Positions 8,040 through 19,669 of a stretch of DNA of 64,000 nt are shown here, piece after piece. Origin of the DNA: Octopus vulgaris (lineage: Eukaryota); contig OX597835.1 of NCBI GenBank assembly GCA_951406725.2, positions 15,066,001-15,130,000 on the forward strand, given 5' to 3'. Position numbers and translations under genes: made by a program. Each line of letters starts with the position of its first letter. The stretch's first letter is position 1. The notes below the pieces were generated by a model. The model ran no database searches and was not told where the DNA came from. It saw nothing but the letters and a program-made list of their open reading frames with translations.

Positions 8040-8265
8040 TATACAATAATATGTTACTTTACTCGGTAGTCAAGATAAAACTCTGAGTTTTCAAATAGCC
8101 AGATAACCGAAGAGATGGTGTTGTGGATTTCCACTTCGGCATCTGAAACTCAGAGTTTTATCTTGACTACCGAGTAAAGTAACATATTATTGTATAGATA
8201 AATTTCCTCTATTTACATAATATTGAGGTCTCTTTCTTTCTTTTGTTATCTTACCGTTTTATCAA
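8040..8265 (+). mobile_element. fold-back Penelope-like element in (TA)n
   Basis: About 51-bp perfect inverted repeat (8040-8090 / 8146-8196), a one-sided 3' extension, TA tracts on both sides. Confidence 0.7.
8101..8163 (+). ncRNA. type I hammerhead ribozyme variant
   Basis: AGATAA CCGAAGA GATG...CATC T GAAA CTC A GAG T T TTATCT; stems I-III present, U4C core variant. Confidence 0.6.
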
Positions 8266-8611
8266 TATATATATATATATATATATATATATATATATAT
8301 ATATATATCGCCTTCACCTTCGAAATGTAGAGTAGATGAAACCATGGCGACTGAAGAAGGGGGGGGTTTTTTGTGTTAATTGTCCTGTACTCTATATATT
8401 TTTTGTTGTTAAAAAAATGTCCAGTTCCCTGGGTTTGTGTCTATGTTTTCGTTTCTCATTGTGTTCGACGTTTTTTTTTTTTTTGTGTCATGTACTCATA
8501 TATGCGTGTATATATACATATAGAGGTTGGTACGTACATATATGTTTATATATATGCATATGTTTTATTTATTAATATATATATATATATATATATATAT
8601 ATATATATATA

Positions 8612-8701
8612 GTAAAGGTAAAGTATACGTACACCACGAGTTTTCGGCCTAATAAAAACCCTAATCCTAAGCACCAGGTGTACGTATTCTTTACTGTCGC
8701 C
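8612..8701. mobile_element. small TIR element relic with a telomere-like internal motif
   Basis: IR GTAAAGTATACGTACACC / GGTGTACGTATTCTTTAC, right end TGTCGCC, internal AACCCTAATCCTAA. Confidence 0.5.
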
Positions 8702-8781
8702 TACATTTCATGTTATATATATATATATATATATATATATATATATATATGTGTGTGTGTGTGTGTGTGTGTGTATTCCTG

Positions 8782-8927
8782 GTGAAGGCCGGTTTATGGG
8801 GTTACCCATAAAGGGTTTAACTTTATAAACGTATCGTCAGACCTCCAGACTTGTTGGCCTAAGACCTCTTTACAATACGGTCCTTATGGACGGGGAACCC
8901 AGGGTAACCTCATAAACCGGCCTTCAC
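8782..8927. repeat. 26-bp inverted repeat
   Basis: GTGAAGGCCGGTTTATGGGGTTACCC / GGGTAACCTCATAAACCGGCCTTCAC, one mismatch. Confidence 0.8.
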
Positions 8928-9125
8928 GCTTCTTCTACGGATTTATGTTTTTCTAAAAACGATATATATATCTGTATATCTATATATATATATATTGGAA
9001 CGACAGATTTCGAAGCAGATAAAGCTATGTAAATATTGAAAGAGATAAAGCGTGTAAATATTGAAAAGTTGGTTTGAAAAAAAAAAAAAAAAAAAAAAAG
9101 GCCATTTTGGAGAGAAAACGCCGAA

Positions 9126-9201
9126 GGCTGCTCCTGGAATTCGAACACACATCTGTGAACATGACAGGCGTTTGTTCTATCTACCACTGGACCAAAGCAA
9201 T
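9126..9201 (-). pseudogene. tRNA-Asp(GTC)-like pseudogene or SINE head
   Basis: A box TGGTCCAGTGG, CGCCTGTCA anticodon region, GTTCGAATTCC, partial acceptor stem TTGCT/AGCAG; anticodon and T stems are broken. Confidence 0.45.
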
Positions 9202-9489
9202 CCTACGAAATTTCTTTATTACATGCATATGTGTATACGTATATATATATGTAAGTTTGTTCCGATATTTGCTGGTAAAAGAAATTTACTCATATATTGT
9301 CGTTATCGTCAGGAACCATTCTTTCACTCAAACTCCCGTTAAAAAGCTAATATTTATAAAGTGTAAAATATTCACACACACATTCGGTATGAGAAATGCT
9401 TAGACAGAAAAAGCAGATTTATAGAGTTTAGACGTCTATCCACAGGTTAAACACTTGGATAATATATACATACTCTCTCTCTCTCTGTC

Positions 9490-10372
9490 GCAGAATGGAA
9501 TGTACTTGTGGATTTTAGTGTATCGCCTATGCTTAAACTTTGCACGAAGTATGTCATAGGGCATACCTACAGATTAGTGCCCCGCACACACACACACACA
9601 CACACACACATCAGTTTATGATTTTATTCAACATATCCCTCTCTCAGATTCACACACTTATCGCCTCGGTCCTCCAGTTCTTCTATGCTCTGTAAAAGAA
9701 CTCAGAAGGTTGGGTCGCCCTTAAAGCCAGGAACTTTTTAGCACCCACTCTGTGTGTGTGTGTGTGTGTGTGTGTGTGTATACACTCACACAGACAGACA
9801 GATAGATAGATTGATATAGATAGATATAGATAGATAGAATAGGCATATGTACAGTTTAGGGACTCAGTTACTTTTCTTCCTTATGTTCTGAAAAATGCAT
9901 ATTTCTATATTTTTTTTCCGAATATACGTTTTAGAGGATGTAATTGATGCTTTTTCTGTCAATTTAGAAGTTTCCGATTTATCCCCCTCCCCACTCGACT
10001 GTTTCCTGATAACTCTAAAATGCATACTGTTTTGAAACCATATTTTGCAGAAACACTTTTCCGATGGTGTAGATTACGTAATGTTGACGCTTGAAATGAA
10101 TAAGTTTGGTGGGGAAAAAATGAAAAATTGTTATAGTTACGAAAGTAGGATGGTCGGGAAGGATTATCTGAAACTTCTCCAAACACTGTTATAATCTACA
10201 TCCTTGAAAATATATTTCTGCAAAATTTCATTAAGAAATATATAGCTTTTTAGAAAGTAATGCGGAAGGAAAGTTGCGGGGGCACTAATCTGTAGGTATG
10301 CCCTGTGACATACGTCGTGCAAAGTTTAAGCATAAGCGATACACTAAAATCCACAAGTACATTCCATTCTGC
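9490..10372. mobile_element. long inverted-repeat element (about 97-bp arms)
   Basis: 9490-9586 is the near-perfect reverse complement of 10275-10372; a weaker inner IR lies at about 9870-9950 / 10190-10272. Confidence 0.7.
9615..9750 (-). mobile_element. mariner-type MITE relic
   Basis: Reverse complement resembles 18085-18130 (GTGTGAATCTGAGAGxGG); mariner-like TIR end AACTTTTTAGCACCC. Confidence 0.5.
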
Positions 10373-16787: not shown

Positions 16788-17137
16788 ATCAACAATCAAG
16801 GAACGGCCATAATAGGCCATTCACCCACTAGAAATAACAGCCAAAGCTTCAACTGCAAATAAAAATTAATTCCGTAAACCAGGAGAAAATTTAAAAAATT
16901 TTAAAAAATTTTAAAAAATTTAAAAAAATTTAAAAAATTTAAAAATTTAAAAATTTTATTTGCGGTTGAAGCTTTGGCTGTTATTTCTAGTGGGTGAATG
17001 GCCTATTATGGCCGTTCCTTGATTGTTGATGTTGAACTTAAAAATGGTCTATGACTATTTAATTTTTTCCCACTAGGCCGCTGGTGGCAGAAGAATTCTA
17101 CAAAATTTTTTTTTTGCCACCCTATATTGATTAATTA
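16788..17137 (+). mobile_element. fold-back element in (TA)n
   Basis: 77-bp arms 16788-16864 / 16954-17030, loop with AAAAATTT repeats, 3' extension with a GGTGGCA...TGCCACC hairpin. Confidence 0.65.
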
Positions 17138-17222
17138 TATATATATATATATATATATATATATATATGTGTGTGTGTGTGTGTGTGTGTGTGTGTGTGT
17201 GTGTGTGTGTGTATTTATGTAT

Positions 17223-17661
17223 AGGCGAGGAGTGGCTGTGTGGTAAGTAGCTTGCTTATCAACCACATGGTCCCGGGTTCAGTCTCACTGTGTGGCACCT
17301 TGGGGCAAGTGTCTTCTACCACAGCTTCGGGCCGGCCAAAGCCTTCTGAGTGGATTTGGTAGACAGAAACTGAAAGAAGCCCGTCGTACATATCTACATA
17401 TCTATATATGTGTATGTTTGTGTGCCTGTGCTTGTGTATGTATGTATGTATGTTTGTTTGTTTGTTTGTGTGTATCCTCCCACCATCGCTGGACAACTGA
17501 TGCTGGTGTCGTTTACATCCCCATAACTTAGCGGTTCGGCAAAAGAGAACGATAGAATAAGTACTAGGCTTACAAAGGATTAAGTCCTGGGGTCGATTTG
17601 TTCGGCTAAAAGCGGTGCTCTAGCGTGGCCGCAGTCAAATGACTGAAACAAATAAAAGAAT
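17223..17661 (+). mobile_element. SINE family A
   Basis: Full-length copy. Confidence 0.9.
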
Positions 17662-18084
17662 AAAATATACATACATAAATACATATGTATATTGAGAAAT
17701 TGATAGATAAGAACAGATTGCTTATGTGCATTCTTCATGTGTGTGTGTGTGTGTGTGTGCACGTGTTCATGCGCACAAGTACATGTATGTATACACACTC
17801 ACACAGACAGCCACGCGCACATGCACCCGGGCACACATCTGCGCGCGCATACACTCAAGGACACACAAACCTACATGCTCGTGCTGACATACATACACAC
17901 TCGCGTAGAAACACACACGTATATACACACATGCAAATGTGCTCACACATTAACGCATACATGCCGAAAGGTATCTCTGTATACATACATGCATGAAAAT
18001 AGTGTATGCGAGGTGGTGCTGCCTTTAGGGGTGTCGCGAAAGGCCTGGGTGGAGGCCCGACCCCCCGGGTTTAGAAAAACCGCT

Positions 18085-18194
18085 GCAATAAATGTGTGAA
18101 TCTGAGAGGGGAATATGTGACATAAAATCGTGATTAACTGATCCTCTTGTATTTTCTTTTGCGCAAATCCAGAAACTTTGCGGCACCCCCTCGT
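18085..18194 (+). mobile_element. mariner 3' end relic
   Basis: Encodes KCVNLRGEYV (mariner transposase C-terminus-like), then TIR-like AAACTTTGCGGCACCCCCTCG-TA. Confidence 0.55.
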
Positions 18195-18198
18195 ATAT

Positions 18199-19022
18199 AT
18201 TCTTTTCGATTCTAGGCACAAGGCCTGAAATTTTGGGGGAGGGGAGAGCCAGTTGATTAGATCGACCCCAGTACCCAACTGGTAATTAATTTACCGACAG
18301 GATGAAAGGCAAAGTCGACGTCGGTGGAATTTCAACTCAGAACGTAACGGCAGACGAAATACTGCTAAGCATTTCACCCGGCGTACTAACGTTTCTTATT
18401 TCTTTACTGCCCACAAAGGGTTACACACAGAGGGGACAAACAAGGACAGACAAAGGGATTAAGTCGATTATATCGACCCAGTTCGTAACTGGTACTTATT
18501 TAATCGACCCCGAAAGGATGAAAGGCAAAGTTGACCTCGGCAGGATTTGAACTCAGAATGTAACGGCAGACGAAATACTTATTTCTTTACTCGCCACAAG
18601 GGGCTAAACACAGAGAGGACAAACAAGGACAGACAAAGGGATTAAGTTGATTACATCGACTCCAGTGCGTAACTGGTACTTAATTTATCGATCCCGAAAG
18701 GATGAGAAGCAAAGTCGACCTCGGCGGAATTTGAACTCAGAACGTAGCGGCAGACGGAATACCTATTTCTTTATTACCCACAAGGGGCTAAACACAGAGG
18801 GGACAAACAAGGACAGACAAACGGATTAAGTCGATTATATCGACTCCATTGTGTAACTGGTACTTATTTAATCGACCCCGAAATGATGAAAGGCAAAGTC
18901 GACCTCGGCGGAATTTAAACTCAGAACGTAGCGGCAGACGGAATACCTATTTCTTTACTACCCACAAGGGGCTACACACAGAGGGAACAAACAAGGACAG
19001 ACAAACGGATTAAGTCGATTAT
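18199..19022 (-). mobile_element. tandem array of SINE family C
   Basis: Junctions at 18397, 18580, 18764 and 18948; unit about 184 bp. Confidence 0.9.
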
Positions 19023-19334
19023 ATATATATATACATATATATATATATGTATATATATATATATATACATAATTATATACATATATATATACATATATAT
19101 ATACATATATACATACATATATATACATACGTATATACATATATACATACATATATATATATACATACATATATACATATATACATACATATATACATAC
19201 ACATATATATATGTATATATTTATATATATATACATACATATATACATATATACATACATATATATATATATACATACATATATACATACATACATATAT
19301 GCATACATACATATATATATATATATATATATAA

Positions 19335-19669
19335 TAATTCTCTAAAAGGGATATAGACAGTAACTGCTCGATAACATAAGGGACTAAAGCCATCTGAATA
19401 TGGCTAGGGACAGGGCAGGGTGGTGGGTGTGTTACTGCTGCATTTAGCCCCAGGCGAACATCGACGTCACCAGAAAGCTCGACACCGTCACGGTGCCTTA
19501 ACCTGCAAAGGGAGGGGAATTACCTCCCTTTGCAGGTTAAGGGCACCGTGACGGTGTCGAGCCTTTCTGGTGACGTCGATGTTCGCCTGGGGCTAAATGC
19601 AGCAGTAACACACCCACCACCCTGCCCTGTCCCTAGCCATATTCAGATGGCTTTAGTCCCTTATGTTAT
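19335..19669 (-). mobile_element. GC-rich fold-back element in (TA)n
   Basis: About 145-bp arms 19371-19515 / 19523-19669, 7-nt loop, 36-nt extension on the left only. Confidence 0.7.

What the first reader, a model, noticed from the sequence alone, without database searches (positions are those of the whole stretch)
8040..19669. Shared architecture: four unrelated fold-back elements with one-sided tails, all inside (TA)n
Seen: 8040-8265, 16481-16770, 16788-17137 and 19335-19669 share no obvious sequence. All read (TA)n - inverted arm - arm - short unpaired extension - (TA)n, with near-perfect arms of 51-145 bp, and two contain hammerheads. Established: Penelope-like elements leave inverted partial pLTR copies lacking the 3' tail and carry minimal hammerheads. 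Inference: a diverse, recently active TA-targeting retroelement system that seeds long dsRNA hairpins through this genome. I do not know of a description for cephalopods.
Basis: partly seen in the sequence, partly recalled or inferred. Interest (0 to 1): 0.75.

Follow-up and report, generated by a model that had tools for sequence, protein, structure and literature searches.

The report
Four mirror-image Penelope retrotransposon insertions
The four DNA hairpins are real, short leftovers of four jumping-gene families (two Penelope-type retrotransposons and two small non-coding ribozyme repeats that likely ride on such elements); this kind of insertion is already known, but the many copies suggest that both cut DNA ends are used to copy the RNA from two different fixed start points.

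Summary
Observation confirmed: four near-perfect hairpins, each with a tail at one end only, lie in (TA)n. Tracing them through the genome gave four parents. E1 is the 3' end of a 2.59-kb Hydra-clade Penelope-like element (PLE). E2 is the 3' end of a 5.8-kb Neptune-type PLE whose ORF1 overlaps the RT-endonuclease frame at a conserved -1 slippery site. E3 and E4 are pieces of 492- and 360-bp non-coding hammerhead repeats (retrozyme-like). Inverted 5'-truncated copies, one-sided tails, TA targeting and octopus PLEs are all in print, so the system is known.

What the copies add: 41 of 43 resolved inverted insertions pair one tailed with one tail-less end; the two arms of a locus are more alike than arms of different loci; either arm can be the longer. 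This fits priming from both target strands at two RNA start sites and argues against fold-back copying. Ribozyme activity, circular RNA, dsRNA, siRNA and editing were not shown. This scan noted the same pattern on other DNA of this genome at least eight times.

The parts
8040..8265 (+). E1: inverted, 5'-truncated insertion of a Hydra-clade PLE (parent unit 2590 bp, 717-aa open frame); antisense arm 8040-8090, sense arm 8087-8265
8100..8164 (+). E1 type I hammerhead-like motif, core CCGAAGA (C at position 4), extra U before GAAA, predicted cut after 8157
   Evidence: activity untested
8197..8265 (+). E1 tail (69 nt) between start site 1 and start site 2
16481..16770 (+). E2: inverted, 5'-truncated insertion of a two-ORF Neptune-type PLE (parent unit about 5.82 kb); antisense arm 16479-16602, 5-nt junction insert, sense arm 16608-16770
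16647..16688 (+). E2 minimal hammerhead motif with U3-A8 core (UUGACAA) and palindromic stem III
   Evidence: U3-A8 variant described in PMC4209133
16525..16566 (-). Mirror copy of the E2 hammerhead motif in the inverted arm
16735..16770 (+). E2 tail (36 nt)
16788..17137 (+). E3: inverted insertion of a 492-bp non-coding hammerhead repeat; antisense arm 16788-16898, reiterated TTTAAAAAA junction 16899-16950, sense arm 16951-17137; ribozyme part not included
17031..17137 (+). E3 tail (107 nt)
19335..19669 (-). E4: inverted insertion of a 360-bp non-coding hammerhead repeat; tailed arm on the minus strand 19335-19515, tail-less arm 19514-19669; ribozyme part not included
19335..19370 (-). E4 tail (36 nt here; 44 nt in most copies)
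16771..16788 (.). (TA)9 target tract shared by E2 and E3; other target tracts 8032-8043, 8266-8307, 16463-16484, 17136-17167, 19312-19333, 19667-19704

Best explanation
The four hairpins are very short head-to-head insertions in (TA)n: E1 and E2 are 3' ends of two protein-coding Penelope-like retrotransposons, and E3 and E4 are pieces of two non-coding hammerhead repeats that are likely pasted in by such an enzyme. Shown: parents, target, two fixed outer ends per family, one end of each type per insertion, arms alike within a locus, independent inner break points. Inferred mechanism: the RT/GIY-YIG protein, probably as a dimer, cuts both strands of a TA tract; each 3' end pairs by a few TA letters with the RNA, one at the downstream start site and one at the upstream start site, the stretch between them being the tail; two cDNAs of the same polarity grow inward on one RNA or on two RNAs from one source, stop at unrelated points and are joined head to head by short microhomology or a small insert. 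If one cDNA fails, a one-armed copy with or without tail results.
For: Parents: 717-aa Hydra-type frame, 776-aa RT-GIY-YIG frame with RVT_1 E 6e-8, tandem 492- and 360-bp monomers with hammerheads. One tailed plus one tail-less end in 7 of 9 (E1), 11 of 11 (E2), 13 of 13 (E3) and 10 of 10 (E4) resolved inverted loci found through internal sequence; 41 of 43, p 1e-10 against 1:1. Substitutions per kb between arms, within versus between loci: 1.5 vs 5.4 (E1, 9 loci), 4.2 vs 10.7 (E3, 11 loci), 5.5 vs 9.3 (E4, 10 loci); 24 variants private to one locus stand in both arms; E2 pairs likewise. The tail-less arm is the longer by more than 40 bp in 13 of 28 one-of-each loci, and inner break points usually differ. 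Both start sites hold TA-like letters in the template. In vitro a Poseidon PLE cuts and extends both strands, starts at two sites that bound the tail, and is predicted to be a dimer (PMC11167929).
Against: 2 of 9 E1 loci break the rule (long/long, short/short). Left out of the count: 3 unresolved, 4 irregular and 5 one-armed loci. All loci are best-scoring, hence young, copies. No sequence link between E3 or E4 and either parent or 34 further loci, most of them Neptune-type, so their enzyme is not identified. Two E4/E3-like chimeric loci show arms from different RNAs or later nested insertion. In PMC11167929 the start site is not homologous to the cut DNA and start sites did not differ between strands, unlike the TA pairing and asymmetry inferred here. 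Junction overlaps (at least 1 bp in 18 of 30, at least 4 bp in 8 of 30) come from BLAST ends and may be inflated.
Confidence: 0.75

Rival explanations
1. Fold-back (self-primed) synthesis: one cDNA, or an antisense RNA, snaps back at its end and is copied into a hairpin that stops short of the tail, as proposed for rotifer Penelope inversions.
For: PMC3846280 reads palindromic junctions as self-priming on an antisense template. Shared variants in both arms would follow directly. Some junctions are nearly symmetric (E4 9/9, E3 246/246; the four window copies).
Against: The tail-less arm exceeds the tailed arm in 13 of 28 loci, for example 1270 vs 37 bp and 1389 vs 321 bp, which a copy of the tailed arm cannot do; inner break points are mostly unrelated; variants in multi-unit arrays are not mirrored about the centre (L031, L170).
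Confidence: 0.1
2. Two separate RNA molecules, one per protomer, are copied at one break; the short/long asymmetry lies in the protein-DNA complex, and arms are alike only because few source loci are expressed in a cell or because arms are homogenised by gene conversion.
For: Two loci join an E4 tail-less end to an E3-like tailed end (L040, L232). Arms are not identical within loci (30 differences in 20 kb for E1).
Against: Private variants stand in both arms at 11 of 30 loci while several haplotypes are in circulation; the chimeras can be nested insertions with deletion, since TA tracts are hit repeatedly (E2 and E3 share one tract).
Confidence: 0.3
3. E3 and E4 arrays are ordinary satellites or DNA-level (MITE- or Helitron-like) elements amplified without reverse transcription.
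For: No ORF and no sequence link to a PLE; expression not shown.
Against: Same two-end rule, 5' truncation and TA target as the coding PLEs; hammerheads kept with a compensatory stem II change and a palindrome-preserving loop change in an E3 subfamily; the inverted arms are of variable length, not fixed terminal repeats.
Confidence: 0.05
4. The palindromes are fold-back artefacts of sequencing or assembly.
For: No raw long read was available and no listed contig bridges the window's own junctions.
Against: Unmirrored flanks, fixed family-specific ends at dozens of loci, distinct junctions, arms with differences; tail-less ends joined to (TA)n and arm-to-arm joints in contigs of other runs.
Confidence: 0.01

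Closest known systems
Hydra-clade PLEs, including Hydra-1_Obim of Octopus bimaculoides (Craig et al. 2021, PMC8557442; passages, section 11, supplement rows and passages seen; figures not seen)
   Same: E1 parent: under 3 kb, one ORF, RWK and DKT motifs, CxCx5C linker, GIY-YIG without internal CCHH, CxxC and CxH, (TA)n target, 3' hammerhead with the same layout; N-terminal part plainly similar to the printed Hydra-1_Obim protein by eye.
   Different: Published entry has 2507 bp and 'no pLTR'; here tandem and inverted arrays of a 2590-bp unit with many open copies, a different hammerhead sequence with C at core position 4. No alignment or tree with the published protein was run.
Neptune-type PLEs (criteria from PMC8557442 and PMC3846280, passages seen)
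   Same: E2 parent: C-terminal GIY-YIG with internal CxxC and two His, CX4CxxC linker, DKG motif, pLTR with minimal hammerhead, 36-nt tail, inverted 5' copy.
   Different: Separate 447-aa ORF1 (no Pfam match above cut-off, no PDB match) overlapping the RT frame at T TTT TTA, and a 2-kb microsatellite-rich 3' UTR. An optional frameshifted ORF1 is mentioned in the Fig. 1 legend of PMC8557442; which clade it refers to could not be seen.
Animal non-LTR retrozymes (PMC7229834, two passages seen; bioRxiv 10.64898/2026.07.22.740005, parts 1-3 of 5 read, supplements closed)
   Same: E3 and E4: non-coding tandem monomers of 360 and 492 bp, one type I hammerhead per unit, proposed PLE dependence.
   Different: Here arrays are often head to head with two fixed ends in (TA)n; 'inverted', 'octopus' and 'cephalopod' do not occur in PMC7229834, and the parts of the preprint read do not describe this geometry. 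Circular RNA and cleavage untested here.
Poseidon PAc in vitro mechanism (Frangieh et al. 2024, PMC11167929; parts 1-2 of 4 read)
   Same: Both strands cut and extended, two internal start sites bounding the tail, AT-rich target, hammerhead cut site not at the insertion end.
   Different: There no strand difference in start site and no homology to the target; the genomic copies here show one start site per end and TA-like letters at both sites.

Membership tests
Penelope-like elements, EN+ (E1, E2) | RT with C-terminal GIY-YIG endonuclease | tested here: met
   E2 parent RVT_1 E 6e-8; E1 parent GIY-YIG only weak (E 0.036, below cut-off) but motifs present
Penelope-like elements, EN+ (E1, E2) | Partial tandems forming pLTRs, inverted 5'-truncated copy, tail at one end | tested here: met
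Penelope-like elements, EN+ (E1, E2) | Hammerhead motif near the 3' end | tested here: met
   variant cores by pattern search; Rfam gathering negative
Hydra clade (E1) | RWK, DKT, CxCx5C linker, no CCHH, CxxC and CxH, under 3 kb, (TA)n target | tested here: met
   against criteria
Hydra clade (E1) | Placement in the Hydra RT phylogeny | not tested
   only by-eye likeness to the protein printed
Neptune clade (E2) | CX2-5CxxC linker before a CCHH-type GIY-YIG, DKG motif | tested here: met
   against criteria
Neptune clade (E2) | Separation from Nematis by RT phylogeny | not tested
   no tree built; both clades have a linker finger
Non-LTR retrozymes (E3, E4) | Non-coding tandem monomers with a type I hammerhead in each unit | tested here: met
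Non-LTR retrozymes (E3, E4) | Self-cleavage | not testable with these tools
   E3 core canonical with compensatory changes; E4 core has C at position 4
Non-LTR retrozymes (E3, E4) | Expression as circular monomer RNA | tested here: inconclusive
   contigs of 359 and 361 nt covering one E4 unit in 2 of 4 runs only guessed to be RNA; a tandem repeat would collapse the same way
Naiad clade | N-terminal GIY-YIG, no hammerhead | tested here: not met
   endonuclease is C-terminal in both parents
DNA transposons / MITEs / DIRS | Fixed terminal inverted repeats with transposase or tyrosine recombinase | tested here: not met
   arms of variable length; only RT-GIY-YIG frames found in the parents

The most novel reading that the evidence does not exclude
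Penelope-type integration is intrinsically two-ended and asymmetric: one protein dimer primes both cut ends of a TA tract on a single RNA (a circle for the retrozymes), at two fixed sites, so that the familiar tail and the head-to-head inversion are one and the same event; the rule holds across Hydra, Neptune and their non-coding passengers, and this genome holds thousands of young, kilobase-long inverted repeats made this way that could feed dsRNA editing.
Probability: 0.45. Interest if true: 0.65.

Novelty: new member of a known kind. Interest (0 to 1): 0.4.

Why it matters
How Penelope-like elements make tandem and inverted insertions is named as an open question in PMC8557442, and only part of the cycle has been rebuilt in vitro. 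Young, high-copy Hydra, Neptune and retrozyme families in one genome give a countable footprint (one end of each type, shared haplotypes, either arm longer) that picks between models and supplies intact natural proteins and short RNAs for a direct test. The architecture itself is ordinary for these elements.

Tried and rejected
Rfam on the whole window returned only microsatellite-driven miRNA matches below gathering score in the 150 of 378 rows shown; gathering search on 7 loci gave none. The idea that each tail is closed by a stem bringing both start sites together: folding z was -0.5 to -1.2 for E1 and E2 in the window and 0.65 to -0.66 for E4; only E3 and the E2 5' copy folded better than shuffles, by other hairpins; not supported. 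Search for the enzyme donor of E3/E4 by DNA likeness: none. Stimulatory structure after the slippery site: simple folding z -1.3 to +2.0 in 5 families, pseudoknots not modelled. ORF1 identity: Pfam below cut-off, PDB none. RNA evidence: all offered runs were contigs, RNA status guessed; no A-to-G pattern, no ends, not informative; low-share metagenome rows were not used. First fetch of E1 pairs missed the ends and was extended for 10 of 14 pairs. No host gene was recognised among ORFs of 110 aa or more. Literature searches for the one-of-each rule, for cephalopod retrozymes and for a Neptune slippery site found nothing specific; subscription papers, the telomeric-retroelement paper sought, figures and bioRxiv supplements were not seen and may describe them.
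Full report
Observation. The window is G000:C22:15066001-15130000 in a 2.8-Gb assembly; I did not determine its source. Self-BLAST recovers all four fold-backs. Arms are nearly identical: E1 51 of 51, E2 123 of 124, E3 about 70 clean pairs next to a reiterated TTTAAAAAA junction, E4 145 bp with two single-base gaps. Each has a tail at one end only (69, 36, 107 and 36 nt), and all 8 outer ends abut (TA)6 or longer, against 5.6% of window positions near such a tract. 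The parents share no significant DNA similarity.

E1. Copies extend upstream into an ORF. A natural tandem unit is 2590 bp with a 717-aa frame holding RWK, DKT, a CxCx5C linker and a GIY-YIG without internal cysteines, followed by CxxC and CxH. These are the Hydra-clade criteria of PMC8557442 (section 11), whose supplement lists Hydra-1_Obim, 2507 bp, (TA)n target. All 150 scored protein hits were 92-100% identical, many with the full 717-aa frame. The hammerhead-like motif had CCG at the start of the core in 100 of the 101 motif copies tallied if the two unlisted rows follow the listed ones; among the 8 rows printed, 100 of 101 copies begin with CC and one reads CCA (overlapping loci count more than once). 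Its activity is unknown.

E2. The parent is a unit of about 5.82 kb: pLTR, ORF1 (480-aa frame, 447 aa from Met), a 776-aa frame with RT (RVT_1, E 6e-8), CX4CxxC linker and CCHH-type GIY-YIG, then a 2-kb microsatellite-rich 3' UTR and pLTR. This fits the Neptune description; no tree was built. Its minimal hammerhead has the U3-A8 core described in PMC4209133. ORF1 overlaps the RT frame in the -1 phase at T TTT TTA G, and four further families in G000 keep the same heptamer and phase; three of the five have no Met between it and the conserved RT start. Five of six outside homologues reach this region and keep Phe-Leu there. A programmed -1 frameshift is therefore likely; it is untested, no 3' structure stood out, four E2 copies have one C fewer upstream, and a frameshifted ORF1 in PLEs is mentioned in a published figure legend.

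E3 and E4. Longer copies are head-to-tail arrays of 492- and 360-bp non-coding monomers, very often as two arrays head to head in (TA)n. Each monomer carries one type I hammerhead in the part missing from the window copies. In an E3 subfamily stem II changes on both sides and the stem III loop changes from one palindrome to another, which suggests selection on a dimer-type ribozyme. They meet the sequence definition of non-LTR retrozymes; cleavage and circular RNA were not shown. Their enzyme was not identified.

The two-end rule. Loci were collected through internal sequence so that ends were not selected: E1 and E2 by protein, E3 and E4 by the monomer middle. One tailed plus one tail-less end was found in 7 of 9 E1, 11 of 11 E2, 13 of 13 E3 and 10 of 10 E4 loci: 41 of 43. 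Dropped before the count: 3 unresolved, 4 irregular (two of them E4/E3-like chimeras, which also pair a short with a long end) and 5 one-armed loci; ends were fetched for 10 of 14 E1 pairs picked. All are top-scoring, young copies. Arms differ less within than between loci (1.5 vs 5.4, 4.2 vs 10.7, 5.5 vs 9.3 substitutions per kb for E1, E3, E4), and 24 locus-private variants stand in both arms at 11 of 30 loci. The tail-less arm is the longer in 13 of 28 one-of-each loci and inner break points mostly differ, with overlaps of at least 1 bp in 18 of 30 junctions (BLAST ends, three of the gaps are artefacts of the unit boundary).

Mechanism. Shown in vitro for a Poseidon element: both strands are cut and extended, reverse transcription starts at two internal sites that bound the tail, and ribozyme cleavage is not needed (PMC11167929). 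Inferred here: each cut end of the TA tract pairs with a few TA-like letters at one of the two sites, two cDNAs grow inward, stop independently and are joined head to head. Self-priming, the published reading of such junctions, cannot give a tail-less arm longer than the tailed one. Whether one or two RNA molecules are used is open: shared private variants favour one, the chimeras and possible arm-to-arm conversion allow two. The four window elements are the shortest class of these events.

Artefact and RNA checks. Only contigs of public runs were offered. They show the tail-less ends of E2 and E3 joined to (TA)n and several arm-to-arm joints at other positions, but do not bridge the window's own junctions. 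Nothing could be said on dsRNA, siRNA or editing.

Comparison and verdict. Inverted 5'-truncated copies, 30-40-bp one-sided tails, microsatellite targeting and cephalopod PLEs are in print; recently active Penelope families are counted in an octopus repeat annotation (PMC13282606, passages). My searches found no paper stating the one-of-each rule or cephalopod retrozymes, within the limits of the library. Earlier notes of this scan report the same pattern on other DNA of this genome; my reading was written down before that look-up and they are not counted as support. New members of known kinds, with a useful mechanistic footprint: interest 0.4.

Noticed in passing
L131:3109-3150 and L295-L306: Five Neptune-type families keep an ORF1/RT overlap in the -1 phase at T TTT TTA G; likely programmed frameshift; ORF1 has no known family.
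   Followed up: partly
L200, L309-L311: E2-family copies with one C fewer just upstream of the slippery site, ending ORF1 early; subfamily or homopolymer error not decided.
   Followed up: partly
L040:2056-3812 and L232:664-2631: Two loci join E4 arms directly to E3-like arrays without TA between; shared enzyme and template switch, or nested insertion with deletion.
   Followed up: partly
window 60133-60197 and 61662-61724: A further hammerhead-like motif (CTGAAGA...GAAAC at 60162) in a short repeat present twice in the window.
   Followed up: no
window 8612-8717: About 105-bp insert between two (TA)n tracts with a short imperfect inverted repeat; possibly another tiny TA-targeted insertion.
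   Followed up: no
window 168-248, 15919-16042, 59156-59334, 59823-59873: Further hairpins; the middle two are made largely of microsatellite letters around a TA core.
   Followed up: no
window 3194-3585, 32036-32451, 48871-49277, 51647-52056, 57451-57839, 60214-60620 and others: Several 380-420-bp dispersed repeats at 93-97% identity, SINE-like, and 186-bp tandem units at 4074-5099 and 18397-19021.
   Followed up: no
L133-L135 (G000:C2:206.28-206.31 Mb): An E1 fragment is repeated with its flanks every 8.5-9 kb, that is, inside a larger tandem duplication.
   Followed up: no
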